Assembly: GCA_964431675.1 (NCBI GenBank)
Contig: CAYSKR010000110.1
Location: 1 to 62,572, forward strand
Length of the DNA stretch: 62,572 nt
DNA from: an uncultured Myxococcales bacterium
Lineage (GTDB): Bacteria; Myxococcota_A; Polyangia; Fen-1088
Direction: 5' to 3'
Every line of letters starts with the position of its first letter. Position 1 is the first letter of the stretch. A model generated the notes under the pieces. That model had not been told where the DNA came from. It saw only the letters and a list, made by a program, of their open reading frames with translations, and did no database searches. Shown here one piece after another: positions 19,945 through 36,010 of the stretch. The translations under genes were made by a program, and so were the position numbers.

Positions 19945-20898
19945 TCAAGCAGTGGCGGGCAGGCCGAATCGGCGCGCGAAGTCTTCGATGGTTCGCCCGA
20001 CGCCATCTTCCAGCGACACCGAAGGCGTCCAGTTCAAGATCGCTTTTGCCCGAGTTCCGTCGGGGTTGCGCCGAACCGGGTCGTCCTTGGGCAAGGGTGC
20101 ATGAATGATCGGCGACTGCGATCGGCACAAGCGCTGCACCAGCTCGGCCAGCTCCAGCATCGTCGACTCGCGCGGATTTCCCAGGTTGATCGGTTCGAAG
20201 CCGTGGTCACTTGCCATCAGGCGCACGAATCCTTCAATCAGATCGCTCACGTAGCAGAACGACCGCGTCTGTTTACCGTTGCCAAACACCGTCATCGGTT
20301 GGCCCCGCAGCGCCGCCACCACGAAACTCGACACCACTCGGCCGTCGTTCTCGTGCATCCGCGGACCGAAGGTGTTGAAGATCCGAGCGATGCGCACCTC
20401 GACGCCAAACTGGGTCGCGTAAGCCACCGCCAGCGCCTCCGCGCAACGTTTGCCCTCGTCGTAGCAGGAGCGAGGCCCAATGGGGTTGACGTTGCCCCAG
20501 TAGGTTTCTCGCTGTGGATGCTCGAGCGGATCGCCGTAGACCTCCGACGTGGACGCCAGCAGCACGCGCGCCTTCGCCTCGCGCGCAATTTCCAGCACGT
20601 TGAGCGTCCCCTCGACGGCAGTCCGGATGGTGCGGACGGGGTTGCGCTGGTAGTGGATCGGCGAGGCCGGGCAAGCCAGGTGGTAGATTTCGTCAACCTC
20701 CATCGTCAGCCGATCCTGGACGTCGTGCCGCACCAGCTCGAAATGCGGATGACCAAGCAGATGCTCGATGTTGGCGCGCGAGCCGGTGAAGAAATTGTCG
20801 AGCGCGACGACCTCATGCCCGTCGGCAACGAGGCGGTCGCACAGGTGAGATCCGAGAAACCCCGCGCCGCCCGTGACCAGCACGCGCTGGCGCCTCAA
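19945..20898 (-). CDS. UDP-glucuronate decarboxylase (UDP-xylose synthase-like) SDR
   Basis: [38 protein letters not shown], and YDEGKR (YxxxK). Confidence 0.85.
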
Positions 20899-21911
20899 GC
20901 GCGTGCTCCCAGCGTGACCGGAGCGCCGTCGTTTACCAGCGATCTGGCCCCGGCTTCAAGCACGCGCACCACGCGAAGCGCCGAAGCACCGCTGGCGCGG
21001 GGTGTTTTCCCGGTCGCAATCGCCGCAATGAAATCTTTGCACTCGAGATCGAGCGGCTCGACCATCGGCACTCGCGGGATGTAGATGTCCCCATTCCGAA
21101 TCGACAGAAACTGGGCAAAATCAGTGAATCCGGACGGTGGTTCAAAGCCCTTGTCGTATACCCGCAGCTTCTCCACCGGGTGGACGTCGTCGAATTCAAC
21201 CATCTTCTGCGACCCCACGATGGTGAGCCGACGCTCCTTGCGCGGGTCCAGCCAGGACAAATGAATCTGCGCCATGACGCCGCTGTGAAAGCGCAGGTTG
21301 ACGAACACCACGTCTTCCACGCCTTTTTGCAGGTAGGCACCGCCCCGCGCACTGACCGACTCGGGCTCGTCATCGAGCAGGTGCAGGATCATCGACACGT
21401 CATGGGGGGCGAGGCTCCACATCGCGTTCTCGTCGGGACGCACCTTCCCCAGGTTCACCCGCAGCGCGTACAGGTACAGGACACGCCCGAGCTCACCGCT
21501 CTTGACCATGGTCGCCAAACGTTCCATCGCCGGGTGGTACAGCATCAGGTGGCCCACCATCAGGGTGCGCTTTGCCTCGGTCGCTGCGGCCACCACCGAC
21601 TCCGCGTCCGCCGCCGTCAGCGCCAGCGGCTTTTCCACCAGCACGTGTTTTCCGGCCTTGAGCGCCTTGCACGCTTGTTCGGCGTGCGCGATCGCCGGCG
21701 TTGCCAGCACGACGGCATCGACGTCAGCGCGCGCCAACGCCTCGTCCAGGGTCTTTCCCAACAGCGCACGCGGTGCGAGTCCAGCAGCCCGTTGCAAGGC
21801 TTCGTCGGATGGGTCACAGACCATCGTCAGGGTTGCGCCCTCGATCCGGCCAAACGCGCGCACGTGGTTGATGCCCCACGCTCCTGCTCCGATGACGGCA
21901 ACCCGAACCAT
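20895..21911 (-). CDS. Gfo/Idh/MocA-family sugar-nucleotide oxidoreductase (WbpB-like)
   Basis: [20 protein letters not shown]..., EKPLALT. 4-nt overlap with the downstream decarboxylase gene. Confidence 0.85.
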
Positions 21912-21917
21912 GTTCTG

Positions 21918-23006
21918 CTAGCCTGGCCCGCGATAAAATGCGGCGATCTGCTCCACCACGTGCGCCTGCTGCTCGGCGCGCAACTCGGGATAAATCGGCA
22001 AGGCCAGTGCCTCACGCGCAGCCGCCTCGCTGTGCGGGAACGCCCCTTCCTTGTAACCCAGCTCAGCGAAACAGGGCTGCTGGTGGAACGACAGCGGGTA
22101 ATAGACTTCGGTCGAAACACCCTGCTTGCCCAGATGAGCCCGCAGGGCGTCGCGCCGGGGCGCGCGCACCACGAACTGGTTGTAGATGTGTTCGGGCACG
22201 TCCCCCGGCAAGCGAAACTCCGCCGGGATGCCCGGCGCGCTTGCGAACAGCTCCCGGTAACGGCCCGCGTTTGCCCGTCGGCCCGCCGTCCAGGCCGGCA
22301 AGCGCGGCAGCTTGACCCGCAAGATCGCCGCCTGGATGGAATCGAGACGGAAGTTTCCTCCCACCGCGTGGTGGATGTATTTCGGTCGCGAGCCATGGGT
22401 CCGCAACAGGACGACCCGGTCGGCGAAGGCATCGTCGTTCGTACACAAAGCGCCGCCGTCGCCAAAGCAGCCCAGGTTCTTCGACGGAAAAAAAGACAGG
22501 CAGCTCGCGACGCCAGAAACCTTGCCCGCACCAATCGACTGCGCCGAGTCCTCGATGATCGGAACGGTGACCTTCGGCAACGTCGCCGGCCGACCGTACA
22601 GATGCACCGGAATGACCGCCTTGGTCCTGGTGCCACATGCGGCTGCCGCAGCGCCCGGATCGAGGTTGAACGAATTTGCCTCGATGTCGGCAAACACGGG
22701 CCGCGCCCCGAGGCGGGCAATGCATCCCGCCGTCGCATAAAACGAGAACGGCGTCGTCACGACTTCATCGCCCTGGCCCACCCCGAGCGCCATCAACGCG
22801 ACCAGCAACGCGTCCGTCCCCGACGACAACCCGATGGCGTGGCGGACGCTCAAGAAGGCCGCCAGCTCCTTTTCGAACGCGGCGACGTCGGGCCCCAGGA
22901 TGAAACTCCCGGCGTCGACGACGCGCCCGATCGCCGCATCGATTTCGCCGCGCAGCGGCCCGTTGCAGGCGCCGAGGTCCAGCAACGGCACCCGCGCCGT
23001 ATTCAT
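21918..23006 (-). CDS. DegT/DnrJ/EryC1/StrS-family sugar aminotransferase (WbpE-like)
   Basis: ATG (plus cat 23004-23006) gives MNTARVPLLDLGACNGPLRGEIDAAI...GDEVVTTPFSFYAT...FFPSKNLG. The upstream 78 codons of ORF 21918..23240 overlap the acetyltransferase gene. Confidence 0.9.
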   Translation of the reverse strand: MNTARVPLLDLGACNGPLRGEIDAAIGRVVDAGSFILGPDVAAFEKELAAFLSVRHAIGLSSGTDALLVALMALGVGQGDEVVTTPFSFYATAGCIARLGARPVFADIEANSFNLDPGAAAAACGTRTKAVIPVHLYGRPATLPKVTVPIIEDSAQSIGAGKVSGVASCLSFFPSKNLGCFGDGGALCTNDDAFADRVVLLRTHGSRPKYIHHAVGGNFRLDSIQAAILRVKLPRLPAWTAGRRANAGRYRELFASAPGIPAEFRLPGDVPEHIYNQFVVRAPRRDALRAHLGKQGVSTEVYYPLSFHQQPCFAELGYKEGAFPHSEAAAREALALPIYPELRAEQQAHVVEQIAAFYRGPG

Positions 23007-23590
23007 GCCCGGCCCCCATCGCGCAGCCGCAAGACCTCGCGGGCCCCATCCTTCCCCAGATCGTAACGGCACCCGCAATCCGCACAAACAAGTGTTCCGT
23101 CGCGCAGCCGCTCGCCGCACCGGCACATCCATCCGACGACCCGGCCAGGCACGCCCATCACCAGGCCGAACGCCGGTACGTCGCGCGTCACGACGGCACC
23201 CGCGCCAATGAACGCGTACTCGCCGATGCTCGTCCCGCACACCACCGTCGCGTTCGCTCCTATGGCGGCACCGCGGCCCACCCGCGTCGTCTTGTATTCA
23301 TCCTTGCGGATGATGAACGCGCGCGGATTGATCACGTTGGTGAACACTGCGGACGGCCCCACGAACACCTCATCGGCAAGCTCGACCGCATCGTAGAGCG
23401 ACACGTTGTTCTGAATCTTGCAGCCGTTGCCGACGATCGCCTTGGTGCCGACGAAGACATTCTGACCGAGCGAGCACCCGGTCCCGATCCGCGCCCCCGC
23501 CATCACGTGACAAAAGTGCCAGACCTTGGTTCCCGCACCGATCTCGCAGGGCTGGTCCACCACCGCCGTGGCATGCGCCCAGTGACTCAT
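23003..23590 (-). CDS. hexapeptide-repeat N-acetyltransferase, WbpD/WlbB-like, with C-terminal Cys-rich ribbon
   Basis: Hexapeptide repeats. C-terminus CRCG...CADCGC. 4-nt overlap with the aminotransferase gene. Confidence 0.85.
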   Translation of the reverse strand: MSHWAHATAVVDQPCEIGAGTKVWHFCHVMAGARIGTGCSLGQNVFVGTKAIVGNGCKIQNNVSLYDAVELADEVFVGPSAVFTNVINPRAFIIRKDEYKTTRVGRGAAIGANATVVCGTSIGEYAFIGAGAVVTRDVPAFGLVMGVPGRVVGWMCRCGERLRDGTLVCADCGCRYDLGKDGAREVLRLRDGGRA

Positions 23591-23609: not shown

Positions 23610-24218
23610 TCAAAAAATCCGCTCTTCGATCATCAGCATGTCGCCGGGAAGCACCACGACGTTGGCTTGCTTACCTTGGCTAATCTCCGCGACCCGGTAA
23701 GTCTGCGTCACCACCTTGCCCTGGACCTCGCGGCGCAGGATGACCGTGTTCTTGTCCGCAATCGGCGAAAAACCACCGGCGGCGGCGACGGCATCCACGA
23801 TGGTCATGTTGGGAAAGTACGGAATGGGGCCCGGCTTGTTGACCTGGCCCAAGACCGATACCTTGCGGCTGTTCCACTCGCGGACGATGATGGAAACCTG
23901 GGGTTTGCGCAGGTAGTCGCCTTGCAGCTTCTTGGTGATGAGTTCTTGCACCTCACCGCTCGACAGCCCAACGACGGAGAGACGCCCGGCGAACGGGTAA
24001 TCGACGGTGCCATCCGCCGCCACGCGGTACGATCCCGAAAACTCGCTTTCACCGAACACCCGCACGTCGAACACGTCTTCAACGCCGAGGCGCTCGTCGG
24101 TGGCTACCGCCAGCGGTGAAATCGGGCGCCCCGCGTCGCCGCGTTGATGACCGCATGAGGCGACCCAGATCGATGCCACGCCAACCAACAACATCGATCG
24201 CGTAAGCAATCTGATCAT
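23610..24218 (-). CDS. short outer-membrane polysaccharide export (OPX/Wza-like) lipoprotein
   Basis: ATG (cat 24216-24218) gives MIRLLTRSMLLVGVASIWVASCGH (lipobox). Poly_export-like YRVAADGTVDYPFAGRLSVVGLSSGEVQELI plus one SLBB-like segment. The protein ends ...LPGDMLMIEERIF with no C-terminal helix. Confidence 0.8.
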   Translation of the reverse strand: MIRLLTRSMLLVGVASIWVASCGHQRGDAGRPISPLAVATDERLGVEDVFDVRVFGESEFSGSYRVAADGTVDYPFAGRLSVVGLSSGEVQELITKKLQGDYLRKPQVSIIVREWNSRKVSVLGQVNKPGPIPYFPNMTIVDAVAAAGGFSPIADKNTVILRREVQGKVVTQTYRVAEISQGKQANVVVLPGDMLMIEERIF

Positions 24219-24228
24219 GCTGCACCGC

Positions 24229-25569
24229 CTAGTACGTGACACCCATGCGTGCAAAAATCTGATGCTTCGAATAGTCGGCACCGACGTCCAGCGGCAAGCT
24301 GCTGCCGTTCAACAGGAAAACATAGCCCGCGCCGGTATAGAACCACTGCTGGATGAAGTAGTCGGCGGACAAGCCGGCCTGCAAAAAATTGTCGTTGCGG
24401 GTGACGACCACGCCCTGATCTTTGTAGCCCTTGAACCGGCGGCTCTCGTAGCGAACGGTCCCCGAAAAAGAAACTCGCTGCGCGATCGATTGGCGCACGC
24501 TGAAGTAAGGTGTGTCCACGTCGTAAAAGTCGCCAAGAACCGAGTTGCGATACTCGTGACGATAGCCAATCCGCAACTCCGTCATCGGGGTGGGCTGGTA
24601 CCCAAGTTCCGCCAGGCCAGCCACGTTGCCGAAGCCTGAAGGATTGGCCGCGCCGCCTTGATAGAACGCGGCGGCATAGCCGGCCGCCAGGTTGACGCTG
24701 AGCTTGTTGGTCACAAGACCACGCAAACCAAGCAGCGCCTTGGAGGGATAGGATCCCTGCTTCGGCGTGAAGCTTGGGCTCATCTTGACGGCTGCCGGCG
24801 CATCCTTGAGGTAGCTGATCATGCCCTGCGATGCTTCCAGAAAGACGGCGGTGTTCGGGTACCACTTCCAGCTCAGGTCAGCTAGCAGCTCGTGCGCGAG
24901 GGAACTTGCGTACGTCAGGCTCGGATCCTCGAAATAATCGAGCAGATTCGAATAGCGCAGCGTGCCGTCGATGCGGCCGCCGCCCGGTGCCACCCGCAAC
25001 TCTGCGCCGACCAGGTTGGTATCCCGCACAATATTTCCATTGCCGCGCTCGTAGGGAGGATCCTGAACCCGCGTGAACGTGTCCATCAACTGAAACGACA
25101 ACTGCTGCCCGGACGAAAACTTGAGCGCCGCAGCGAGGTTCGGGTTGAACGCCCGCTGGGCCTTCACCGCCGCATCGTCGGACAGGTATTCGCGATACTG
25201 CAACAACGCGCGCAGGTTGTAGAAAATGGGCGGAATCCCGCCACTGCGGGTGCCGTTGGTCAGTTCGGCAAACGGGGTCACCCGCAACATCGGCGCCGCG
25301 GTGGGAGCGAGCTTCGAATAGAACACGTTCGAGTCGTAGCCTCCCTCGGCCCCAACACCCACGTGCAATAGACTCGTTTCGCTGAGGGAGACACCAGCCC
25401 GGCCCGGCCCAACCTGGACCGCATCGCGAGCGCGCAATGCCGCATCGCTGCCGATGTTGCTGAAGCCTGGACTGGACGCCAGACCTCCCCCGTTATCCGC
25501 CCGCGCGTTCGCCGCTGCAAGGAGTACCGCCGCCAGCGCGACGTAAGAAGCAGTAAAGCGGAAAGTCAT
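24229..25569 (-). CDS. outer-membrane beta-barrel protein (GltH/NfsH-like or Wzp-type porin partner of the OPX)
   Basis: ATG (cat 25567-25569) gives signal peptide MTFRFTASYVALAAVLLAAANARA. Alternating-hydrophobic beta pattern throughout. C-terminal ...FARMGVTY ends in an aromatic residue. Confidence 0.65.
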   Translation of the reverse strand: MTFRFTASYVALAAVLLAAANARADNGGGLASSPGFSNIGSDAALRARDAVQVGPGRAGVSLSETSLLHVGVGAEGGYDSNVFYSKLAPTAAPMLRVTPFAELTNGTRSGGIPPIFYNLRALLQYREYLSDDAAVKAQRAFNPNLAAALKFSSGQQLSFQLMDTFTRVQDPPYERGNGNIVRDTNLVGAELRVAPGGGRIDGTLRYSNLLDYFEDPSLTYASSLAHELLADLSWKWYPNTAVFLEASQGMISYLKDAPAAVKMSPSFTPKQGSYPSKALLGLRGLVTNKLSVNLAAGYAAAFYQGGAANPSGFGNVAGLAELGYQPTPMTELRIGYRHEYRNSVLGDFYDVDTPYFSVRQSIAQRVSFSGTVRYESRRFKGYKDQGVVVTRNDNFLQAGLSADYFIQQWFYTGAGYVFLLNGSSLPLDVGADYSKHQIFARMGVTY

Positions 25570-25657: not shown

Positions 25658-26302
25658 CTACTTGAAGGTACTCGCGAGCACCGGACGCGCGGTGCTGTCC
25701 GTTGTGGCGCCGGTTGTGGTGCTGCCCGTTTCGGATTTGGTCAAGTCCTGTTTCGTCATGTTCGAATCGCGCTCCATCGTACGCGTGGCCGCGCCGAGGT
25801 AGCTGGCCTCCGCGCCCGCGCACTTCTCGGCTTCCGCGTCGATAACCTGGGCCTTTTGGTTCAAAATCGTGACCCGCGTGTACTCGTGCAGGCAGTCCCC
25901 ATCGGCTTTCTTGGCCAACTCATCGTCATTGCGAGCCGCCGCAGCGGCTTTCCGGGCGGCCCCATCTTGCAGGGCAAGCAAGCCCTGATCGGTCATGTTC
26001 AGATTCGCCTTGGCCTCGGCTTGGTTGCCCTGGAGGCAGTTGATGCGAATGACGTCTTTCTCTTTTCGCGCCGACTCGAGCAGGGTGTCGACGTGGCGCA
26101 GCGTCGCTTCGATCTTCTGGCGGTAAATCTGGCACTGACTGATCATTTCGGCGGGACTGATCGTCGAACGCTGGGGCAACGACAAGCTAACGTCAGGCGG
26201 CGGTGCCTGCGTCGTGGTGCCTGGCGTCTGCGCCAGCGCGGTACCAATAGCGGTCGCCAGGGCGAAAATCGCCCCCAAGCTCGTTGTTGTCGCCTTGGAC
26301 AT
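25658..26302 (-). CDS. secreted coiled-coil protein with four Cys
   Basis: GGAGG RBS 8 nt upstream. Signal peptide MSKATTTSLGAIFALATAIGTALA. Heptad-like Ala/Lys/Glu-rich body. Confidence 0.6.
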   Translation of the reverse strand: MSKATTTSLGAIFALATAIGTALAQTPGTTTQAPPPDVSLSLPQRSTISPAEMISQCQIYRQKIEATLRHVDTLLESARKEKDVIRINCLQGNQAEAKANLNMTDQGLLALQDGAARKAAAAARNDDELAKKADGDCLHEYTRVTILNQKAQVIDAEAEKCAGAEASYLGAATRTMERDSNMTKQDLTKSETGSTTTGATTDSTARPVLASTFK

Positions 26303-26453
26303 AACTATCCTCCTCGCGCGTCGGTTGGTGGTGCATCGGTCGGCAGGAAAAGCTGCGACAGCACGCCGCTGAGCCTACAATCGGCGGCAATATAAGTGTA
26401 TGCAGCACGCTGTGTCAACAAGGCCACACGGGCATTTATGTCTTTGTGCGTTG

Positions 26454-27866
26454 TCACTGTGACGCCGTGAAAACAAAGGGGAAAGAGACCTCGACCGCGC
26501 CCCCGGAAGGAGCCGGGAAACGCCACCTGGCGACCAGGCCCTTGATGCAGCCTGAGACCTCTGAATCGCCCAGCGTGTCCTCTTCGATATCGACCCCAGA
26601 CACCGTTCCGGCCGGGGTAATGGTCCAATGGACCTTGATCTTGCCAGATAGGCTAGGGTTCCGCTTCAAGGCGCGCTCGTAGCAGGCCTTGATGGCACCC
26701 ATGCGCGCCCGGACTTCCTTGGACACGATGTTGGGGTCAAGCTCGCCGTCGACGGCCGGTGCCTCGTGCTTGACGATGCCCGATACGCGCCGCTCGGAGC
26801 CCTGGCCGGTGCCGCCTTCAGCGATGCCCGATCCGCCGCGCAGGCCACCGACGCTGGCGATCTTGCCGCTCCCTCCGGTGCCGGTCTTGACCCCGCGCAG
26901 CGTGTCGCCGCCGGTGGCCACGGTCAAGCCTCCTACCCCCTGGAACGCTTTCTCCTGATCGCGATCGACGTCGCCCTTGCCGAGCACGTCGGCGATCGAC
27001 CCGTCCTCACCCTTGGCACCCAGCAACTTGAGGATGCCGGTGTTCTTCACCGCCTCCACGAGACGGGCACGGCGCTCTGCCGCCGCCTTCTCCTTCTCTT
27101 CCTCGCGTTTCTTCTTGTCTTCCTCGGTCAGTTCTTTCTGTTCTTTCTTCGGCGCCGCCGCGACCGGCTTCTTCTTGTCTTCGCCTTTGGTGTCGTCCTT
27201 CTTCTCTTCCTTGGGCTTGGGCGGCTCGATCGCCTTCTTTTGCACGACCATCTTGATGAAGCGATCAGGGATTTCTTCGATGTCTGGTTTGCGTGGCCAA
27301 TCCACGCTGCGCAGGTAGATGACCATCACCAGGTGCATGGCGAACGACGTGGACGCGATCGCGGTGAAGAACCAGTCCATCTGGCCAGCGAAACTTCCGC
27401 GCACCGACGCCGGCAACTGCGGCCGCGGCTGCGGTGGCGGCGGCGTGACGAACTGAAACAAGATGGTGGTGTCGCCAACAACGATCTTGCCACGCGAGCG
27501 CTCGTCGAGCGCCAAGAGCCAGGCCGATCCCTGCTTCTTGATCTTGCCGGTCTGTTTGAGCTGGCCGAGGGTGATGACCTCGTTGCCCACGGCGATGCGC
27601 GCATCCATCGCGTCCGCGAAGTGCCCGACGTAGCCCTTCGGCGTCTCCTGGAAGAGCAGCCACTCGCGCGGCAGGTATTCAGTTGGGACGACGAACATGT
27701 TGCGTGCCGATTGCCCTACGGTGATGTTTTCGCGCTTGCGCACCAGGCGTTCCTCTACGATGCGCCCCCCTTGAATGACGCCAATGCGTAAAATCTTCTG
27801 CCGGGGAACAGCGCGAGCCGCTGTGCCTGCATGAGAGCTCTTGTTGCTTGCCTGTGGAGTCGCCAT
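26454..27866 (-). CDS. bitopic TonB-like protein, GltG/PglI (NfsG)-like: cytoplasmic FHA-like domain, one TM, Lys/Glu/Pro linker, AgmX/PglI-type C-terminal domain
   Basis: N-terminus ILRIGVIQGGRIVEERLVRKRENITVGQSARNMFVV. TM FFTAIASTSFAMHLVMVIYL. Linker KPKEEKKDDTKGEDKKKP. C-terminus ...IKACYERAL...GCIKGLVARWRFPAPSGGAVEVSFPFVF. Confidence 0.7.
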   Translation of the reverse strand: MATPQASNKSSHAGTAARAVPRQKILRIGVIQGGRIVEERLVRKRENITVGQSARNMFVVPTEYLPREWLLFQETPKGYVGHFADAMDARIAVGNEVITLGQLKQTGKIKKQGSAWLLALDERSRGKIVVGDTTILFQFVTPPPPQPRPQLPASVRGSFAGQMDWFFTAIASTSFAMHLVMVIYLRSVDWPRKPDIEEIPDRFIKMVVQKKAIEPPKPKEEKKDDTKGEDKKKPVAAAPKKEQKELTEEDKKKREEEKEKAAAERRARLVEAVKNTGILKLLGAKGEDGSIADVLGKGDVDRDQEKAFQGVGGLTVATGGDTLRGVKTGTGGSGKIASVGGLRGGSGIAEGGTGQGSERRVSGIVKHEAPAVDGELDPNIVSKEVRARMGAIKACYERALKRNPSLSGKIKVHWTITPAGTVSGVDIEEDTLGDSEVSGCIKGLVARWRFPAPSGGAVEVSFPFVFTASQ

Positions 27867-27888: not shown

Positions 27889-28290
27889 TTAGAACGGAGA
27901 TCGGGTGACGCTGTCCATGATCTTCGGGATGAAATCTTGCTTCAGATCCTGCCAGTCGTAGTTGATGCCGGACTTCTGAAGTACGTAGAAAGCTTCAGGT
28001 TTTTGAATCTTTCCTTCTATCGTGACCACGTCGGTGATCACATAGACCTTCTTGCCGCCTGCGCCGCGTTCGATCTTGACGCCGGTCGGTTTGGTATCGC
28101 CGCCTTGCTGCGCCGCGGCACCCGCAGGCTGGCCCGCCCCCACCGCAGGTGGCTTGGCTGCGGCTGACTTCTGCGCCTGGGCAGCAGGCAAGACCGATGC
28201 CGCGCCGAGCCAAAAACCAAGGCACGCAAACACCACCCGCGGCGCGGGATGACCTGGGAGTTTCCTCATTTGATCTCGCATGAGCTTCAT
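27889..28290 (-). CDS. small secreted protein in the GltF/NfsF position
   Basis: The start shares 1 nt with the upstream stop (TAATG). Hydrophobic signal segment VVFACLGFWLGAASVLPAAQA. Assigned by position and size only. Confidence 0.55.
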   Translation of the reverse strand: MKLMRDQMRKLPGHPAPRVVFACLGFWLGAASVLPAAQAQKSAAAKPPAVGAGQPAGAAAQQGGDTKPTGVKIERGAGGKKVYVITDVVTIEGKIQKPEAFYVLQKSGINYDWQDLKQDFIPKIMDSVTRSPF

Positions 28291-29291
28291 TACTTCAGCG
28301 GCAAAGGTGCGTCGGCCGCGGGTGTTGCCTTGGATGGTGAAAGGGCCGCGGGCGCGGCAGCGGATCCTGCCGCAGCCGCTGCGTCTTTGGCCGCCTTTTG
28401 TGCTGCGCGCGCCTTGTCGCGTTCGAGTTGCTTTTGCACGCGCTCGATGCGCTTCTGTTCCTTCTTGATCCCCTCGCCTGCCTCGGTGATGTACTGGTCG
28501 ACGGGATCCTTGTCGAGCGACTGCCCGGACGACTGCATCATCTGCTTGTAGCGCTGGAAGTAGGCAATCGCGGCGTTCATTTTGGCCGTCAGATCCATGT
28601 TCGGCATCTTGTCGGCGTCAAGGTACAAGATGCCCTGGTTGAACACGGCGTCGGCGTAGTTGGGGTAAAGCTGCAAGGCGTGCTGGTACGAGGCCAGCGC
28701 CTTGTCGTAGTCCTTGAGACCGCGGTAAGCGTCGCCGAGATTCAAATGGGCCTTGGCGAATCCCGGATGCAGCGACACCGATCTTTCCAGCAACGGGGTC
28801 GCCTCGCGGTAGTTCTTCGCTTCAAGGTACTGCGCCGCCAGGTTGTTCCACATGATCGCGTTCTCGGGCCGCGCTAGGGTGGCCTTCTTGAGCATCTCGA
28901 TCGCGCCCGGGCCGTTGCCTTTCTCGCGCTCCATGAACGCGAGCAACTGATACATATCGCCTCGCTCGGCGTCAGCGGCCTTGTTCGCCTGCATCATGTC
29001 CCACAAGGTTTTGACCCACTCGTACTTGTGCAGCTTGTAGTAGCCCTTGGCCATCAGGAGCATGGCGGGCGTGAAAGTTTCGTTCTTGGCCAGCGCCACC
29101 TTGGCCGCCGCGACCGTGCCCTCGTAGTTCCCGGCCTCATACTGTCGGCCAGCGGCGGCCGTCTCGTCGATGGGAATGACCTTGGGCGGCGGCTGGCGCT
29201 TCTTGCGCGCGGCATCCTGGGCATGCGCCGCCCCAACCCCGGAAAACCCGAGGGCAAAACCGATGAACAGCCACATTTTCATTGACTTCAC
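28290..29291 (-). CDS. secreted TPR-repeat protein, GltE/AglT (NfsE)-like
   Basis: Signal peptide MKSMKMWLFIGFALGFSGVGAAHA. Several TPR units (NNLAAQYLEAKNYREA, LNLGDAYRGLKDYDKALASYQHALQLYPNY). 4-nt overlap with the upstream gene. Confidence 0.72.
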   Translation of the reverse strand: MKSMKMWLFIGFALGFSGVGAAHAQDAARKKRQPPPKVIPIDETAAAGRQYEAGNYEGTVAAAKVALAKNETFTPAMLLMAKGYYKLHKYEWVKTLWDMMQANKAADAERGDMYQLLAFMEREKGNGPGAIEMLKKATLARPENAIMWNNLAAQYLEAKNYREATPLLERSVSLHPGFAKAHLNLGDAYRGLKDYDKALASYQHALQLYPNYADAVFNQGILYLDADKMPNMDLTAKMNAAIAYFQRYKQMMQSSGQSLDKDPVDQYITEAGEGIKKEQKRIERVQKQLERDKARAAQKAAKDAAAAAGSAAAPAALSPSKATPAADAPLPLK

Positions 29292-32200
29292 GGGTACTCC
29301 ACCCCGATGCGCTCGTCCTTTATATAGGGAAACTCGTCGGGCAAATACTTCGAAAGATTCTCACGCGCCTTCTTGACGTAGTCGTTGGTGACGCCAAGCT
29401 GGGCCGCTCTTTCAAGGGTGGCCTTCCATTCGGTCTTGGCCGTGTCTTCGATCGGCGTCACAAACTGATAGATGGCGTCCTTGTACTGCGTCAAAGCTTC
29501 GCCGCACAGACTTGGATCGGCGCGGCACGCCTTCTTATCGATCGACTTGACCTCGTCAGGGGGCGCGTCGGCTGCCTTGACCAGCTTCTGCGCGAACTCG
29601 TAGAAGATGTCGCCGCGGCGCAAAAACGAAGCCAGGGTCCAGGTGGCATCCTTGTAATCCCACACCCGCTTGTACTCTTCCTGCAGCGCTCTGGCCTCGG
29701 CGATGAAAGCATCAATGACCGCCTTGGCTTTCTTCGTCTCGGTTAGCCGCAGTTGCTTGGCCTTGAACACGTTGAACTTGTCGTCGAGCAGCAGGTACTC
29801 AGCCTTGGCCGCCGCAGCGGCCGCCGGCGTCGCGGGCGGCAGATGCCGCGCTAAAAACTCGTTGCGCACCTTCTGATAGGCGGCCAAAACGTCCTTGCGA
29901 TTGCGGCTCTGCTGCTCGGTGAGCGTCGCCTTCTTGAGGTAAGCGTCGATGACGTAGTCGCCGGCGTCCTGCGCTCCGGAATAGCGCCGGATGAGCTCAT
30001 CGAGACACTGGCGATACTTGCCGTAATCCTTGGCCTTCTCGTAGTCGTTGCAGGCGTTCATGTAGGCCTGCGCGGCATCCTTGGGCTTGTCGGCAACCGC
30101 GTCGGCGTACTGCTTGAAGAGCTGCGCGGCGCGCGGGTACTGCTGATCGTTGTCGACCAGGATCGCCGCCTTGCCGAGGGCCTCCTTGCGATGCTCGTTG
30201 CCGGTAAACTTTGGGTCGGTGGCGACCTTGGTGTAGTAGGCGACCGCCTTGTCGAACTCGAACGCGCGGCTGTAGTTGTTGGCCGCGTTCCAGGTGGCTT
30301 CCTTGCCCAGCGCCGTATCACCGTAGTCGCGCGCCAGACGCTCGTAGCACTTGGTGGCTTCCGCCGGCTGGAAGAGCTTTTCGTAGATGACGCACGCGTT
30401 GTTCAGGTTGTTGGGCGCGTCCTCTTCCTTCGGGCTCTCGTTGACCAGATCCATCAGGTCCAGCGCGAGGCTGGCATCAAGGCCCGAGGCGATTGCCTTG
30501 CTACCTGGGGCCGGAGCCACGCCCGGCTTGGTGGTCGCCACACCGCGCACGATGTCGATGCCGCCGGTGCCTTCCTTGCAACGGGCCACCTGCTTCGAGG
30601 TGCCTTTCTCTTCGTTCTCGATCTCGTTCTGCGCCGTCTGCGTGATCACGGTCGAGCGCACCGAGCTCTTGATCTGCTTGATGCGCGCGATGAACTCACC
30701 GCCGTTCTGCGACTTGGCACACGGCGATTCGCTGAACTGCTCGGCAATCGCCAGGAGTCGTCCGAGGGCACAGTCCTTTTGTTCAGCGTCGGGAACCAGG
30801 TAGTCGATGAAGTAGGTCTGCAGCAGCGACTGGTAAGCCGTGAGGCCCACGTCGGACTGCGTACCGCAATAGGTATCAGCCACCGACTGCAAGCGCTTCC
30901 GGCCCTCGGGCCAGTCCTTGTAGCGCAGCACCATGACGGCGGCCGCATACTTCATGCCGGGGACCTTCTCGTCCTTCAGGTTGGCGACGTACCAGTCGAG
31001 CGCGCCCAGGTACTTGGTGTAGATCTCGGGCAGCGCAATCGGCGTCACCGGTGGCTTGGTGTTCTTCTCGTCGGGGATCGGCGGATCCTCGAGCTGCTTC
31101 GCCACCTTCATCCGATCGATGATCGCCTCGTACGACTTGATGATCTGAAACGCCGCCGTGACCTGGTTCTTGTTGTCGAGGACCGAGTCACGGACCAGCG
31201 TGTAGGCCGCGATGGCCGCATCGAACTGGTCGGAGAAATACAGCGCGTCGGCGTAGAAGGCGGAAAAGTCATAAGCCTGCTTCGAGTTCGGATAGGCGAC
31301 CAGATACTTTTCGTAAAGCTCGCCAGCGTTCTTGTACAGGACTTTGCACTGCAAAAGCTTGCTCGTGTCCGACTGGTTCTTCTGCCACTGATCCTTGCAC
31401 CCCTGCGCCGCCGCATGCACGTTGGTGGCCGCGATCAGCAAGGCGTCCTCGGCCAGCTGCTGCGCCACCGCCAGGGCTTCGGGGTTGTCCTTGTTCTTGT
31501 CGAACCAGGCCGTGCCCTTGGTGTAGTTGCGCCCCAGCAGCTCGCGCTCTTTCGCTGCGGCTTCAAGATTGCGGTCGCGCTCGAACGCCTTGACGATCTT
31601 CTCCTGCACCTGGGGGGCTTCGATGTAGTATGGCCACTTCGCCAAAAGAGCGCGGTAAACGGCGATCGCCTCGGGGAACTTCGTCTGATCGAAGTAGATG
31701 TCGCCGAGGCGCTGGTAGACCTCGCGCACGTGCGGCTCGACCTCGCGGCCGGCGTAGAACTTTTCCATGCGAGCAAGGCCGGTCTCGGGGTCGGGCAGGG
31801 TGTCGCCGTCCCAGTCCGACTCGTTGAAGCTGATGCCCAGGTACTGCACCGCTTCGGGACGCAAATCAGAGCCGAATTTTTCGCCCGAACTCTTGCGCCC
31901 GTCGGCCCATTTCACCAGGCCATCGAATTCCTTGATGGCCTCGGAAAAGCGGTTGTCGCGGTAATACGACCACGCCAGCTTGTACAGCGCCTTGTCGTAA
32001 TAGGTCGAATCGGGAAACTCCAGCACCTTCCCGTAGGCACCGATGGCCAGGCCCAGCTCGGCGTTGTCGAAGTGCATCTCGCCCACCCGGGTCCATGCCT
32101 CGGCGAGAAACTTCGAATCCTTTTTTACAGGCACGCAATCCTTGTAAACCTCCGCCGAGGCGGAGCGCGACGCCAGCGCGCCACCCCGGGAAACCTGCGG

Positions 32201-32851
32201 CGGCGGCGGCGGATCGAGCGGCTTGTATCGATTCGAGCAAGTCATGGCGAGCAGCACCTGCTTGGCCTCGGCATCCTGGCCCATTTCGCCCAGGCAAAAG
32301 CCCAGCAAGTAGTACGCGGCGTCGAGCAATCGGTAATTCGGAAACTCGGTGAGCAGGCGGCGGTACAGGTCCACCGTGTTGGCGTAGTTGGGCCTGGGCG
32401 ATGGCGTCGTGGGCGGGGTCGGCGAATCGAGCGCCTTCTGGTACTCCTCCTGGATGGTGAGGAACTCGTCGGACGACTTCTCGTAATAAAGTTCCGCCAG
32501 CCGGAACATCGCGTCCGGGGTCCAGCGCCGATCATTGGGGTACCTGCGCAGGAACTGCTCGAACATCGCGATGGCGTCGAGCCGCCGCTCCCGCTCTTCC
32601 TTCTCATTCAAAGAAATCAGTGGCTCGTACTTGGACTTGATGCCCTTCATCTTGTCGATGTAGGCGCGACGAATGACCACGTTGGCGGCAGCCCGGTAGC
32701 CCTTCACCGCTTCGCTGAAGCGCGCCACGTCGTTGGCCATTTCCTCGAGCTGCTGCGGATCGAGCGTGGCGGGCGCGGAAGCGGCGTGAGCGAGGCTGGT
32801 CGCGATCATCCCGAGCGCACCGAACACAGCGGCGGGCGCGATGCGCGTCAC
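29288..32851 (-). CDS. large (1187 aa) secreted TPR-repeat protein, GltD/AgmU (NfsD)-like
   Basis: Signal peptide MTRIAPAAVFGALGMIATSLAHA. TPR-like helical repeats throughout. Size and position match AgmU-type proteins. 4-nt overlaps at both ends. Confidence 0.7.
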   Translation of the reverse strand: MTRIAPAAVFGALGMIATSLAHAASAPATLDPQQLEEMANDVARFSEAVKGYRAAANVVIRRAYIDKMKGIKSKYEPLISLNEKEERERRLDAIAMFEQFLRRYPNDRRWTPDAMFRLAELYYEKSSDEFLTIQEEYQKALDSPTPPTTPSPRPNYANTVDLYRRLLTEFPNYRLLDAAYYLLGFCLGEMGQDAEAKQVLLAMTCSNRYKPLDPPPPPQVSRGGALASRSASAEVYKDCVPVKKDSKFLAEAWTRVGEMHFDNAELGLAIGAYGKVLEFPDSTYYDKALYKLAWSYYRDNRFSEAIKEFDGLVKWADGRKSSGEKFGSDLRPEAVQYLGISFNESDWDGDTLPDPETGLARMEKFYAGREVEPHVREVYQRLGDIYFDQTKFPEAIAVYRALLAKWPYYIEAPQVQEKIVKAFERDRNLEAAAKERELLGRNYTKGTAWFDKNKDNPEALAVAQQLAEDALLIAATNVHAAAQGCKDQWQKNQSDTSKLLQCKVLYKNAGELYEKYLVAYPNSKQAYDFSAFYADALYFSDQFDAAIAAYTLVRDSVLDNKNQVTAAFQIIKSYEAIIDRMKVAKQLEDPPIPDEKNTKPPVTPIALPEIYTKYLGALDWYVANLKDEKVPGMKYAAAVMVLRYKDWPEGRKRLQSVADTYCGTQSDVGLTAYQSLLQTYFIDYLVPDAEQKDCALGRLLAIAEQFSESPCAKSQNGGEFIARIKQIKSSVRSTVITQTAQNEIENEEKGTSKQVARCKEGTGGIDIVRGVATTKPGVAPAPGSKAIASGLDASLALDLMDLVNESPKEEDAPNNLNNACVIYEKLFQPAEATKCYERLARDYGDTALGKEATWNAANNYSRAFEFDKAVAYYTKVATDPKFTGNEHRKEALGKAAILVDNDQQYPRAAQLFKQYADAVADKPKDAAQAYMNACNDYEKAKDYGKYRQCLDELIRRYSGAQDAGDYVIDAYLKKATLTEQQSRNRKDVLAAYQKVRNEFLARHLPPATPAAAAAAKAEYLLLDDKFNVFKAKQLRLTETKKAKAVIDAFIAEARALQEEYKRVWDYKDATWTLASFLRRGDIFYEFAQKLVKAADAPPDEVKSIDKKACRADPSLCGEALTQYKDAIYQFVTPIEDTAKTEWKATLERAAQLGVTNDYVKKARENLSKYLPDEFPYIKDERIGVEYP

Positions 32852-35199
32852 TTCTGGTCCTCCTCAAGCAAGGACTTGAAGTCGTCCTCGATCGACTTGA
32901 GCTCCAACTTTTGCATGTTGATGAGCTTCGACACCGCGCTGGTTTTTTGATCTTTGAGGCCCCACGACACGTCGATGAGGCCGACGTCGGACTGCACCAC
33001 CAGCTCGTAGAATCGGTCGCTGACCTTGGTGAGCATGGCGGACGCGAGCCCACCGCCGAGGCTCTGCGACTCGGACATGAGGCCACCGAGGCGCGCGGTG
33101 GCTTGCTGCAACTGCGCCTGCTCGATCACCATGCGCTCCTTGACCGAAACCAGGCGCTGATCGGCCGCGGCATCGATCCGGCCGTCAAATTCCGCCAGTT
33201 GCGTCTGCACGACATCGGCTCGTCGCAAGACCGAGGCCACCGCATCGAACTCACCCCGCGCACCCGACGGCAGACGCGGCTGCACTTTGGCGAGCTCTTC
33301 CAGCTCGGCCTTCATGAGGTCGGACAGCCGAAGCGTTGCCCTGCGCTCACCCGGGTCGGAACCAGACGTGGCTGCTTCCTGGGCGGTCACCTCGATCTCG
33401 CGCCGGACCTTCTCCAGCGCGGTCTGGGCGACCGCAATCTCGGTCCGCAGGTCGGCCACTGGCCCCTGCAAATCCTCCGGGCGAATCTTCTGCTCGGCCC
33501 GCGAGGTAACGTAGTACTGCTCGATGGCGATGAGTTCGGCTTCGAGCGAGCGGATAAGGACGTTGAGCTCCGACGCCTGGGCGTCGAATCCCGTCACCGC
33601 ACCGCGCACGTTCCGGTCTCTTTCCTTGAGTGCTGCGGCGGACATCGGCAAAGCCTGCGTCTGCTGTTCGAGCAGTGCCCGCTCGCTTGCGATGCGATCG
33701 ATGGCCAGCTTTTCCTCGGCGGACAGGTGCGAAGCCACGAGGCCCCGCAACCGGCCAGCAAAGCGGCCACGGATGTCCATGGTCTGGTTCAAGATTTCGA
33801 CCGAATCCGTGCGCGCATTCGACAGATCCGAAAAAAGGCCCGACCGGCCCACGCCCGTGACCGCGCGATCAAGACGATCCATGAGCTGCTCGGAAGCCCG
33901 CATGTCGCGCTTTATCTCGCTCACCTCCTCGACCAGCGCGAGCATGCGCTCCATCTCGACGTCGGGCTTGATCCACTTGGCCGCCGCCGGGGGCACAAAC
34001 GCCGCGATGTTGAACTTGTCGAGGTTCTTGCCGATCAGGTTCTCGAAGTATTTGGCGTCCGACTGCGACCGCACCTTCTGCTCGCCAACCTGCTTGAGCA
34101 GGGGCTCGAACTGGTCGCGCATCTCGCTGAAGTTGCCGTTGGCGACAAAGAAGTTGCCGAGGCGCAGGTTCAAGTTGCCCATGAGCAACCGAAGTTCCGG
34201 TGCCTGGGAACCGTTGGCGTCCTGGAGCAGCAGCAAGTCCAGGGCGCGGTATGCGCTCTTGAAGTCCTTTGCCTTGATCGCGTTCCACGCCGACTCGTAC
34301 ATGGACTCGGTGAAGTACTTGGAATCCCTGGGCACGGCCGCGTACGCATCCCGCGCCTTGTCGAACTGGCCGCGGTCGAAATACACCCGGCCAATGGCCA
34401 TGTGGGCCAGATCCTGAATTTCCTTTTCGTCGTCGCTGCGCGCCTGGATGCGCAGCACCATGTCGAACGCGGTGGCGGCGTCGGCCATTTCGCCCTGCTT
34501 GACCGAGATGGTGGCGATGAAATAGCGCGCCTGCATGTAATAGGGACTCGTCGGCGCGATGCCGCCGAACGAGGCCAGGGCCACGTCGAGCTTGCCGCGA
34601 AAATAACTGTATTTGCCGCGCACGTAGGGGACCGACGCCTCCAGTTTCTGCTGCGGCACCTTGTCGAGACGGCCGAGGTAGCCATCGACGTTGCCGTAGT
34701 CGTCGGTGCGCAGCGCGATCTCGACCAGGCGCTGCAGCGCCCGCTGCTCGGCCCGGGAACCGGTCTCCTTGGTAATCGCCTGCTCGAAGTAGCGCCGCGC
34801 CGAGTTCAGATCCTTGCCGAGAAAGCGCGCTTCGCCGAGGAGCAGAACCGCATCGTCAAACGCGCGCGAATTGGGATACTTCTCGATGACGTCGAGCAGC
34901 ATGATCGCTGCCTCGTCGTAGTTTTTTAGCTCGAACAACGTTTGCGCCGCGATCACGCGACGGTCGGCCACCAGCGGATCGGACTGCGCGGCCTGGTTGT
35001 CGCGGAACTCGGCGGCTATCTGCCGGACCCTGCCATCGAGTTCAAACAACTTCTTGTTGGCATCGTCGAAGTCGTCGGCCAGGGCCGCCGCAGATCCGAA
35101 CAGAACCACGCCCATGGCCAACGCAGCCGGGCGACCGCTCCGCGGTCTCGCCAGCCACGCGCCGCGCCGGTCGCGGATCGGATGCTCATCCTCGTGCAT
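32848..35199 (-). CDS. TPR plus long coiled-coil envelope protein in the GltC/NfsC position
   Basis: Hydrophobic N-terminal segment. TPR-like N-terminal half (AQTLFELKNYDEAAIMLLDVIEKYPNS...). The C-terminal roughly 350 aa is heptad-rich and Glu/Arg/Leu/Ala/Gln-rich. Confidence 0.65.
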   Translation of the reverse strand: MHEDEHPIRDRRGAWLARPRSGRPAALAMGVVLFGSAAALADDFDDANKKLFELDGRVRQIAAEFRDNQAAQSDPLVADRRVIAAQTLFELKNYDEAAIMLLDVIEKYPNSRAFDDAVLLLGEARFLGKDLNSARRYFEQAITKETGSRAEQRALQRLVEIALRTDDYGNVDGYLGRLDKVPQQKLEASVPYVRGKYSYFRGKLDVALASFGGIAPTSPYYMQARYFIATISVKQGEMADAATAFDMVLRIQARSDDEKEIQDLAHMAIGRVYFDRGQFDKARDAYAAVPRDSKYFTESMYESAWNAIKAKDFKSAYRALDLLLLQDANGSQAPELRLLMGNLNLRLGNFFVANGNFSEMRDQFEPLLKQVGEQKVRSQSDAKYFENLIGKNLDKFNIAAFVPPAAAKWIKPDVEMERMLALVEEVSEIKRDMRASEQLMDRLDRAVTGVGRSGLFSDLSNARTDSVEILNQTMDIRGRFAGRLRGLVASHLSAEEKLAIDRIASERALLEQQTQALPMSAAALKERDRNVRGAVTGFDAQASELNVLIRSLEAELIAIEQYYVTSRAEQKIRPEDLQGPVADLRTEIAVAQTALEKVRREIEVTAQEAATSGSDPGERRATLRLSDLMKAELEELAKVQPRLPSGARGEFDAVASVLRRADVVQTQLAEFDGRIDAAADQRLVSVKERMVIEQAQLQQATARLGGLMSESQSLGGGLASAMLTKVSDRFYELVVQSDVGLIDVSWGLKDQKTSAVSKLINMQKLELKSIEDDFKSLLEEDQK

Positions 35200-35919: not shown

Positions 35920-36010
35920 GTCGAAGCTCCCGAGTGTCTTTGAGGGTACGCCTCGCCCCGTGCGGACGAGGACGGCGGGCGTCTTCTATACCAGGCCATG
36001 GGAAGGTGAG

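What the first reader, a model, noticed from the sequence alone, without database searches (positions are those of the whole stretch)
23610..25569. Short OPX lipoprotein without an outer-membrane helix, preceded by a dedicated beta-barrel
The Wza-like protein is only about 202 aa. It has a lipobox, a Poly_export-like region and one SLBB-like region. It stops at ...GDMLMIEERIF, so it lacks the C-terminal amphipathic helix that lets E. coli Wza span the outer membrane.

The gene 10 nt upstream encodes a beta-barrel with a signal peptide and a terminal aromatic residue. In M. xanthus, truncated OPX proteins are known to pair with separate integral beta-barrel (Wzp-type) porins.

This barrel also occupies the GltH/NfsH position of the upstream cluster. 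One barrel may therefore serve both roles, or the GltH-like assignment may be wrong.
Basis: partly seen in the sequence, partly recalled or inferred. Interest (0 to 1): 0.6.

Follow-up and report, generated by a model that had tools for sequence, protein, structure and literature searches.

The report
Short polysaccharide exporter with its porin
These two genes are the counterparts of the Myxococcus xanthus WzaB/WzpB pair, a short periplasmic lipoprotein plus an 18-strand outer-membrane barrel that together let a secreted polysaccharide leave the cell; the pair is a known kind of system, and it sits, as in most myxobacteria, at the end of a gliding-motor-like gene cluster whose function is still unknown.

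Summary
Window 23610-24218(-) encodes a 202-aa lipoprotein with Poly_export and one SLBB domain and nothing after them. Ten nt upstream, 24229-25569(-) encodes a 446-aa secreted protein that models as an 18-strand beta-barrel (pLDDT 87).

Both are orthologues of characterised M. xanthus proteins:
- The OPX aligns end to end with the WzaB crystal structure 9n9a (E 4e-35).
- The barrel profile matches WzpB over its full length (hhalign 99.7%). It is the only hit in a complete Myxococcus genome.
- The barrel profile does not match GltH or NfsH orthologues (2.3% and 0.6%).

The OPX is not truncated: 111 of 115 orthologues stop within 2 residues of the same position, on a hydrophobic or aromatic residue.

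This genome has one OPX, one such barrel and one PCP-2A, so the pair is probably its only outer-membrane polysaccharide outlet.

The upstream cluster corresponds to the M. xanthus "G4" Glt paralogue, whose function is unknown. Across 57 Myxococcota loci, the barrel follows a short GltG-like gene in 49 and precedes an OPX in 45.

Verdict: a new member of a known kind. The G4 linkage is a testable lead. This scan has already reported that linkage on at least seven other genomes.

The parts
23610..24218 (-). wzaB-like gene. It encodes a 202-aa Class-3 (D1D2) OPX lipoprotein with Poly_export and one SLBB domain. It ends in Ile-Phe.
   Evidence: - Pfam domains.
- Best solved relative is 9n9a_A (M. 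xanthus WzaB), E 3.7e-35, aligned to both C-termini.
- It is the only Poly_export gene in the genome.
- Orthologues end at the same position.
24229..25569 (-). wzpB-like gene. It encodes a 446-aa secreted 18-strand outer-membrane beta-barrel with a C-terminal Tyr.
   Evidence: - AF2 model, pLDDT 87.3, 18 strands.
- hhalign against the Myxococcus WzpB orthologue, 99.7%.
- Weak EpsL (TIGR03014) hit.
- Homologues carry PF10082.
- It is the only member of its family in the genome.
25658..26302 (-). Gene for a 214-aa secreted three-helix-bundle protein with two invariant Cys. It is the counterpart of the gene just upstream of wzpB in Myxococcus. It travels with the barrel and OPX even where the Glt-like genes are missing.
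   Evidence: - blastp against Myxococcus, Corallococcus and Archangium loci.
- Present between the GltG-like gene and the barrel in 43 of 57 loci, and in 7 loci without G4.
- Alignment A2.
- AF2 model, helices 50-81, 84-123 and 127-162.
- No informative fold match.
26389..26418 (-). Sigma-70-like promoter match (TTGACA-18-TATATT, 11 of 12) in the 151-nt gap before the 214-aa gene.
   Evidence: It is the only match in 19500-37500 on either strand. It is a consensus match only, with no transcript evidence.
26454..27866 (-). Short GltG-like gene of the G4 type. The product is 470 aa, has a TonB_C-like AgmX/PglI tail and no FHA domain.
   Evidence: - NCBIfam gliding_GltG E 4.5e-51, model positions 204-648; myxo_SS_tail 106.6 bits, above its cut-off.
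- Orthologous to the G4-type paralogue beside wzpB in Myxococcus.
27889..28290 (-). Small GltF/CglF-like gene.
   Evidence: Weak CglF hit. blastp hits to the same position in Myxococcus-type loci.
28290..29291 (-). GltE-like TPR protein gene (333 aa).
   Evidence: gliding_GltE E 6.6e-15. TPR domains. Synteny.
29288..32851 (-). GltD-like TPR protein gene (1187 aa). It is the counterpart of the G4 gltD homologue (MXAN_1922 type).
   Evidence: blastp 318-420 bits to the gene at the same position in five loci. Luciano 2011 names MXAN_1922 as the G4 gltD homologue.
32848..35199 (-). GltC-like TPR protein gene (783 aa).
   Evidence: gliding_GltC E 4e-11. TPR domains. Synteny.
35206..35985 (-). First gene of the string. 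The product is 259 aa with no family hit.
   Evidence: No Pfam or NCBIfam hit. A gene of similar size sits at this position in L001, L003 and L005.
19945..23590 (-). Four amino-sugar modification genes directly after the OPX:
- a NeuD/PglB-type acetyltransferase
- a DegT aminotransferase
- a UDP-GlcNAc 3-dehydrogenase-like oxidoreductase
- a 4,6-dehydratase/epimerase
   Evidence: Pfam. NCBIfam, all below the equivalog cut-offs.

Best explanation
The two genes encode a composite Class-3 OPX/beta-barrel translocon, orthologous to M. xanthus WzaB/WzpB.

Proposed mechanism:
- The 202-aa protein is exported and acylated on Cys22. It assembles under the outer membrane as a ring of D1-D2 (Poly_export-SLBB) units. 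It cannot cross the membrane itself.
- The 446-aa protein forms the 18-strand pore.
- The hydrophobic/aromatic C-terminal tip of the OPX (Ile-Phe here, Phe-Phe in WzaB) docks on the periplasmic rim of the barrel.
- The apical loop YLRKPQ (YVRRPQ in WzaB) contacts the periplasmic crown of the single PCP-2A (Wzc) of the genome, which is encoded on another contig with a Wzx flippase and glycosyltransferases.
- An amino-sugar-rich polymer made by a Wzx/Wzy-dependent pathway leaves the cell through this conduit.

Shown here: domain make-up, strand number, orthology, gene order, and single copy in the genome. Inferred from the M. xanthus experiments: oligomerisation, docking, the PCP contact and the nature of the polymer.
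For: OPX:
- Poly_export plus SLBB and nothing after them.
- End-to-end alignment with WzaB structure 9n9a, E 3.7e-35. That sequence is 100% identical to an M. xanthus AM003 locus.
- Better match to the WzaB orthologue (128 bits) than to another OPX of the same Myxococcus genome (85 bits).
- The C-terminal position is conserved in 111 of 115 orthologues. The last residue is F, L, Y or I in 114 of 115.

Barrel:
- 18 strands.
- Full-length hhalign match to WzpB.
- Its profile finds a single place in a 9.5-Mb Myxococcus genome, next to wzaB.

Gene arrangement:
- A 10-nt gap and the same barrel-then-OPX order as in Myxococcus.
- OPX directly downstream of the barrel in 45 of 57 phylum-wide loci.

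Genome content:
- One OPX, one barrel and one Wzz-domain PCP.
- The PCP has a fused tyrosine autokinase, as WzcB does.

Mechanistic basis from the literature:
- Mellouk 2026, PMC12819527.
- Saidi 2022.
- Schwabe 2022.
Against:
- The two binding motifs mapped in WzaB are only partly kept: Phe-Phe is Ile-Phe, and Arg-Arg is Arg-Lys.
- Barrel identity to WzpB is low (about 22-25% by blastp).
- Foldseek did not single out AlgE or PgaA among generic barrels.
- No Wzy was identified with confidence.
- The PCP and biosynthesis genes lie on another contig of a 279-contig assembly, so their link to this pair is by exclusion only.
Confidence: 0.85

Rival explanations
1. Dual role. The WzpB-type barrel is both the exit pore for the OPX and the outer-membrane end of the upstream G4-type Glt/Nfs-like trans-envelope complex. 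It fills the place that the small barrel GltH/NfsH holds in the Glt and Nfs systems. On this view G4 acts on the exported polymer, as Nfs acts on the Exo/MASC polymer.
For: - The barrel lies within 3.5 kb downstream of a short GltG-like gene on the same strand in 49 of 57 loci, spanning many families of the phylum.
- In 12 loci the barrel stays with G4 while the OPX lies elsewhere. All five of those genomes that were tested have a short OPX elsewhere.
- The G4 string has no GltH-sized barrel gene.
- The Agl-Nfs machine handles the ExoA-exported polymer in M. xanthus (Wartel 2013).
- G4 has no known function (Luciano 2011).
Against: - The evidence is synteny only.
- A strong promoter-like site separates the G4 genes from the 214-aa/barrel/OPX genes.
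- In 8 loci the barrel and OPX occur without G4, 7 of them also keeping the 214-aa gene, so the export module works as a separable unit.
- The papers read on BPS, WzaB and WzpB report no G4 involvement.
Confidence: 0.3
2. The barrel is only a Glt/Nfs component (a GltH/NfsH equivalent), and its position next to the OPX is incidental.
For: It occupies the last position of a gltC-D-E-F-G-like string.
Against: - GltH is 209 aa and NfsH 200 aa, against 446 aa and 18 strands here.
- hhalign against the GltH and NfsH orthologues gives 2.3% and 0.6%, against 99.7% for WzpB.
- WzpB is needed for BPS export and binds WzaB in vitro.
- The barrel and OPX persist without G4 in 8 loci.
Confidence: 0.03
3. 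The barrel is a general nutrient porin, or the OPX is an assembly-truncated full-length Wza.
For: - Foldseek lists OmpF-type porins and TonB-dependent receptors first.
- The assembly is fragmented (279 contigs).
Against: - The Foldseek matches have TM below 0.5 and are generic to barrels.
- Sequence orthology and synteny point to WzpB.
- The OPX stop codon is followed 20 nt later by the next gene's start.
- 111 of 115 orthologues, and the WzaB crystal construct, end at the same position.
Confidence: 0.02

Closest known systems
M. xanthus WzaB (MXAN_1915, PDB 9n9a) and WzpB (MXAN_1916), the biosurfactant-polysaccharide (BPS) Class-3 OPX/porin translocon
   Same: - Same gene order (barrel then OPX) and same sizes (204 and about 420 aa, against 202 and 446).
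- Same domains, and a lipoprotein OPX.
- An 18-strand barrel.
- An aromatic C-terminal residue on the OPX.
- A basic pair in the YxRxPQ loop.
- The PCP-2A partner is encoded elsewhere in the genome.
- The same upstream neighbours.
   Different: - About 40% (OPX) and 22-25% (barrel) identity.
- The tip is Ile-Phe instead of Phe-Phe, and the loop has Arg-Lys instead of Arg-Arg.
- Here the pair is the only OPX/porin in the genome, whereas M. xanthus has three.
- Amino-sugar genes follow directly downstream.
M. xanthus G4 cluster (gltD homologue MXAN_1922; Luciano et al. 2011), a Glt/Nfs paralogue of unknown function
   Same: - The window string C-D-E-F-short G matches, gene by gene, the genes upstream of wzpB in Myxococcus, Corallococcus and Archangium loci.
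- The GltG-like score is comparable: 181 bits here against 173 bits for the Myxococcus copy next to wzpB.
   Different: - Obg lies upstream here. In M. xanthus the adjacent locus tags MXAN_1925/1926 appear in papers on MglA/MglB (titles only, not read).
- The link of G4 to wzpB/wzaB is not discussed in the papers read.
M. xanthus EpsY/EpsX (WzaX/WzpX) and ExoA/ExoB (WzaS/WzpS)
   Same: Same architecture: a D1D2 OPX next to an 18-strand barrel.
   Different: - The window barrel profile does not detect the barrel-sized gene next to another OPX of a Myxococcus genome (hhalign 0.5%).
- The EpsY model scores only 64 bits against a 320-bit cut-off.
- So this is the B-type orthogroup, not X or S.
E. 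coli Wza (Class-1 OPX, PDB 2J58)
   Same: The Poly_export and first SLBB domains align (E about 1e-16).
   Different: Wza has further SLBB domains and the C-terminal amphipathic helix that forms the outer-membrane pore. Both are absent here.
EpsL / PF10082 (BBP2_2) barrels of PEP-CTERM-type exopolysaccharide loci, with the short pepcterm_export OPX
   Same: - Weak barrel hit to TIGR03014 (E 5e-5).
- Many homologues carry PF10082.
- The best NCBIfam hit of the OPX is pepcterm_export.
   Different: All scores are far below the curated cut-offs. PF10082 finds nothing in this genome at E<=0.01.
GltH (MXAN_4866) and NfsH (MXAN_3378)
   Same: Outer-membrane barrels encoded after gltG/nfsG.
   Different: They are 209 and 200 aa small barrels with no profile similarity to this barrel.

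Membership tests
Class-3 / D1D2 OPX (WzaB type) | Poly_export (PES) domain | tested here: met
   PF02563 at residues 38-112, E 2.1e-20, 73 bits against a 28-bit cut-off.
Class-3 / D1D2 OPX (WzaB type) | One or two SLBB domains and no outer-membrane-spanning C-terminal domain | tested here: met
   SLBB/SLBB_2 covers 119-196 of 202 residues. No other Pfam hit appears at E<=1. The protein ends with WzaB in the alignment.
Class-3 / D1D2 OPX (WzaB type) | Length <=280 aa with a coupled barrel gene within five genes (Schwabe 2022 criterion) | tested here: met
   The protein is 202 aa, and the barrel gene lies 10 nt upstream.
Class-3 / D1D2 OPX (WzaB type) | Type II signal peptide (lipoprotein) | tested here: met
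   The lipobox V-A-S-C (Cys22) was read from the sequence. No predictor was run.
Class-3 / D1D2 OPX (WzaB type) | C-terminal Phe-Phe motif that binds the porin | tested here: inconclusive
   The window protein ends in Ile-Phe. Among 115 orthologues the last residue is F in 86, L in 19, Y in 7 and I in 2. The FF pair occurs in 58. The motif was defined.
Class-3 / D1D2 OPX (WzaB type) | Arg106-Arg107 loop that binds the PCP | tested here: inconclusive
   YLRKPQ aligns with YVRRPQ, so one Arg is kept and one is replaced by Lys.
Class-3 / D1D2 OPX (WzaB type) | Lipidation-dependent oligomerisation and a requirement for secretion | not testable with these tools
   Needs biochemistry or genetics.
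Wzp porin (WzpB orthogroup) | 18-strand integral outer-membrane barrel with a type I signal peptide | tested here: met
   The AF2 model has 18 strands, pLDDT 87.3 and pTM 0.83. The signal peptide and terminal Tyr were read.
Wzp porin (WzpB orthogroup) | Sequence homology to MXAN_1916 | tested here: met
   - The profile hits the ORF upstream of wzaB in M. xanthus AM003 (E 3.6e-21) and in more than 60 other loci.
- hhalign gives 99.7% over 379 columns.
- It is the single hit in a Myxococcus genome.
Wzp porin (WzpB orthogroup) | Synteny with a Class-3 OPX gene | tested here: met
   Adjacent here. Adjacent in 45 of 57 sampled loci.
Wzp porin (WzpB orthogroup) | Fold likeness to the synthase-pathway porins AlgE/PgaA | tested here: inconclusive
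   Foldseek returned only generic barrels with TM below 0.5. AlgE and PgaA were not in the top 50. The PDB profile search found no barrel.
GltH / NfsH | Small barrel of about 200 aa encoded after gltG/nfsG | tested here: not met
   This barrel is 446 aa with 18 strands. GltH is 209 aa and NfsH 200 aa.
GltH / NfsH | Sequence similarity to GltH or NfsH | tested here: not met
   hhalign against the Myxococcus sp. Y35 orthologues gives 2.3% (signal peptide only) and 0.6%.

The most novel reading that the evidence does not exclude
The WzpB-type barrel, perhaps with the conserved 214-aa helical protein, is the physical junction between a Class-3 OPX polysaccharide outlet and the G4 Glt-like trans-envelope complex. 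On this view G4 is a motor-coupled device that handles or deposits the exported polymer, as Agl-Nfs does for spore-coat polysaccharide. That would give a function to a cluster left unexplained since 2011.
Probability: 0.3. Interest if true: 0.7.

Novelty: new member of a known kind. Interest (0 to 1): 0.4.

Why it matters
The pair itself adds a distant orthologue from a small genome to the Class-3 OPX/Wzp system. It shows which features survive at about 25-40% identity:
- the 18 strands of the barrel
- the exact C-terminal end of the OPX, with a hydrophobic or aromatic tip
- one basic residue of the PCP-binding loop

In this 3.5-Mb genome the pair is the only outer-membrane polysaccharide outlet. 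That makes it a simpler background than M. xanthus, which has three parallel pathways.

The wider point is the phylum-wide linkage of this outlet to the G4 Glt paralogue. It turns "what does G4 do?" into a concrete genetic test in a model organism.

Tried and rejected
- Pfam on the barrel gave nothing above noise (DUF2490, E 0.14).
- PF10082 against the own genome found no hit at E<=0.01.
- A profile search of the barrel family against PDB sequences gave only chance hits.
- A guessed NCBIfam accession for GltH turned out to be TraA. GltH and NfsH orthologues were instead taken from the genes after gltG and nfsG in a Myxococcus genome.
- Foldseek of the 214-aa three-helix bundle gave no match below E 0.015.
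- An OPX-barrel complex model was not possible, because the structure tool folds single chains only.
- The idea that family f11 genomes separate the barrel from the GltG-like gene arose from the truncated list. It was withdrawn after the loci were fetched.
Full report
**What is in the sequence.** All genes of interest lie on the minus strand.
- The OPX ORF starts at ATG 24218 and stops at TGA 23610-23612. It is 202 aa and ends ...GDMLMIEERIF.
- Its N-terminus, MIRLLTRSMLLVGVASIWVAS-C, has a lipobox (VASC).
- The barrel ORF starts at ATG 25569 and stops at TAG 24229-24231. It is 446 aa, has a signal peptide ending ANARA/DNGG, and its last residue is Tyr.
- Ten bases separate the two genes.

**The OPX.**
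- Pfam places Poly_export at residues 38-112 and SLBB/SLBB_2 at 119-196. Nothing else matches at E<=1.
- NCBIfam gives sub-threshold hits to pepcterm_export, EpsE, a Wza subfamily and EpsY.
- Against PDB sequences the best match is 9n9a_A, E 3.7e-35. It aligns query 39-202 with chain 24-186, so both proteins reach their C-termini together.
- That chain is 100% identical to an M. xanthus AM003 locus. It is therefore the WzaB structure of Mellouk et al. 2026 (PMC12819527).
- E. coli Wza matches only over D1-D2 (E about 1e-16).
- The WzaB tip VPESFF corresponds to IEERIF here. The WzcB-binding loop YVRRPQ corresponds to YLRKPQ.
- In 115 loci carrying an orthologue, 111 end 0-2 residues after the end of the profile match. 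The last residue is F in 86, L in 19, Y in 7 and I in 2.

The short length is therefore the native state of the family and not an assembly artefact.

**The barrel.**
- Pfam gives nothing. NCBIfam gives a weak EpsL hit (E 5e-5).
- The large protein collection holds 132 relatives at E<=0.001. Most are unnamed, several are labelled Polyangia, and many carry a PF10082 (BBP2_2) hit.
- An AlphaFold2 model built on 55 of them has pLDDT 87.3 and pTM 0.83. It shows 18 strands between residues 67 and 445, after a disordered stretch at 16-53.
- Foldseek against the PDB returns only generic barrels with TM below 0.5.

Sequence profiles are decisive.
- The family profile hits the ORF immediately upstream of wzaB in M. 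xanthus AM003 (E 3.6e-21) and in more than 60 other Myxococcaceae and Archangiaceae loci.
- hhalign against the Myxococcus sp. Y35 copy gives 99.7%, E 1.8e-26, over 379 columns and the full length.
- In that complete 9.5-Mb genome the profile finds this one place only. The genome has three Poly_export genes.
- A barrel-sized gene beside another of those OPX genes gives 0.5%.

The window barrel thus belongs to the WzpB orthogroup specifically.

**GltH/NfsH comparison.**
- GltH is 209 aa (Luciano 2011) and NfsH is 200 aa (Muller 2010).
- I took their orthologues from the genes following gltG (1094 bits, over the cut-off) and the nfsG-like gene in Myxococcus sp. Y35.
- hhalign against the barrel family gives 2.3% (signal peptide only) and 0.6%.

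The barrel stands where gltH would stand, but it is not a GltH/NfsH relative.

**The neighbourhood.** The genes upstream of the barrel are, in order outwards from it:
- a 214-aa secreted protein
- a 470-aa GltG-like protein (gliding_GltG E 4.5e-51 over model positions 204-648, so without the FHA part)
- a small CglF-like protein
- GltE-like, 1187-aa and GltC-like TPR proteins
- a 259-aa protein
- Obg

Downstream of the OPX are four amino-sugar genes.

blastp shows that the whole string matches, gene by gene, the region upstream of wzpB-wzaB in Myxococcus, Corallococcus, Archangium and two MAGs. The matched order is C, D, E, F, short G, the 214-aa gene, barrel, OPX.

Luciano et al. 2011 call the M. 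xanthus cluster holding the gltD homologue MXAN_1922 "G4". They found no motility defect on its disruption and left its function unknown. Islam et al. 2020 describe mxan_1915 (wzaB) as orphan-like, 1.016 Mbp from the BPS cluster. The main texts of Saidi 2022 and Schwabe 2022 do not mention Glt or G4.

**How deep the linkage goes.** In 81 sampled Myxococcota genomes, 58 have a barrel of this family. I fetched 57 loci and scored them with profiles built from the window and eight related loci.

| Feature around the barrel | Loci (of 57) |
|---|---|
| Short GltG-like gene within 3.5 kb upstream, same strand | 49 |
| 214-aa homologue between GltG-like gene and barrel | 43 |
| OPX directly downstream | 45 |
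| Both GltG-like gene and OPX | 37 |
| G4 and barrel, no OPX within 10 kb | 12 |
| Barrel and OPX, no G4 | 8 |

- Five of the 12 genomes with no nearby OPX were tested. Each has a short OPX elsewhere.
- Seven of the 8 loci without G4 keep the 214-aa gene.
- In the closest relatives of the window (L001, L003, L005) the eight-gene string up to the barrel is constant. The OPX is adjacent in L001, 6 kb away in L003 and 3.6 kb away in L005.

The barrel is thus the hinge between two modules.

The only sigma-70-like match in 18 kb lies in the 151-nt gap before the 214-aa gene (TTGACA-18-TATATT). This fits a separable export module, but it is only a consensus match.

**The rest of the pathway.** The assembly is 3.47 Mb in 279 contigs, reported as 100% complete.
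- It has one Poly_export gene and one barrel of this family.
- It has one Wzz-domain protein, on contig C224. That protein is a 733-aa PCP-2A with GNVR and a tyrosine autokinase domain (TIGR01007, 175 bits, over the cut-off).
- Next to the PCP lie a Polysacc_synt flippase, a Glycos_transf_4 initiating transferase, glycosyltransferases and a carbamoyltransferase.
- A PCP-2A encoded away from the OPX/porin pair is also the BPS arrangement in M. xanthus.
- A second, canonical glt cluster sits on contig C148. It has a full-length GltG (417 bits) and a 3487-aa GltI-like gene.
- Eight MotA/ExbB-family genes lie on other contigs, and none lies in the window.

**The 214-aa protein.** An alignment of 24 homologues shows two invariant cysteines and a conserved RPPPASP-like tail. 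The model is a three-helix bundle (residues 50-162, pLDDT above 95) with disordered ends. It has no informative fold match. Its role is unknown. Its distribution ties it to the barrel and OPX rather than to G4.

**Mechanism.** By orthology with the M. xanthus system, the proposed steps are:
- The lipoprotein forms a periplasmic ring under the outer membrane.
- Its C-terminal tip docks on the 18-strand barrel.
- Its apical loop meets the PCP-2A.
- A Wzx/Wzy-made, amino-sugar-containing polymer passes out through this conduit.

Composition, fold, orthology and gene order are shown here. Contacts, stoichiometry and substrate are inferred.

**Novelty and earlier findings.** The pair is a new member of a known kind. 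The G4 linkage is present but, in the papers I read, unremarked in the model species. It gives a testable hypothesis.

After I had reached this reading, a look-up showed that this scan had already reported the same G4 plus WzpB/WzaB linkage on at least seven other genomes. My tests agree with those reports.

Noticed in passing
window 25658-26302 (-): A conserved 214-aa secreted three-helix-bundle protein with two invariant Cys. It is present from this lineage to Myxococcus. It stays with the barrel and OPX even where the Glt-like genes are absent. The window copy has a 14-residue insertion with an extra Cys.
   Followed up: partly
window 26389-26418 (-): The only sigma-70-like promoter match in 18 kb (11 of 12). 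It sits in the gap between the GltG-like gene and the 214-aa gene, which suggests a separate transcription start for the export module.
   Followed up: partly
G000 contig C148, about 3467-24660 (locus L142 covers part): A second, canonical glt-type cluster in the same genome. It holds a full-length GltG (758 aa, 417 bits), a 1188-aa GltD-like gene and a 3487-aa GltI-like gene.
   Followed up: partly
G000 contig C224 (L141) 46-16273: A polysaccharide assembly locus. It holds the only PCP-2A of the genome, a Wzx-type flippase, a Glycos_transf_4 initiating transferase, several glycosyltransferases, an FkbM methyltransferase and a carbamoyltransferase. A 784-aa protein there has no family hit and might be the polymerase.
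   Followed up: partly
L137 (G047:C7:447908-448700): In one genome of the same class the barrel gene is split into two short frames (221 and 119 aa), while the OPX gene still follows. This may be a frameshift or a decaying gene.
   Followed up: no
L094, L096, L100, L103, L126, L133 (family f14) and L095, L125: These lineages carry the barrel and OPX (with the 214-aa gene in all but L094) but no Glt-like genes within 8 kb upstream. The export module can therefore stand alone.
   Followed up: partly
window 39570-41615 (+): A FHIPEP (FlhA/SctV-type) export-gate gene (E 1e-209) in a member of a phylum not known for flagella. The rest of its apparatus was not looked for.
   Followed up: no
window 47582-48583 (-): A protein with FHA and DUF4388 (PATAN-like) domains. 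It lies close to two large unannotated minus-strand ORFs (49472-53097) with no Pfam hit.
   Followed up: no
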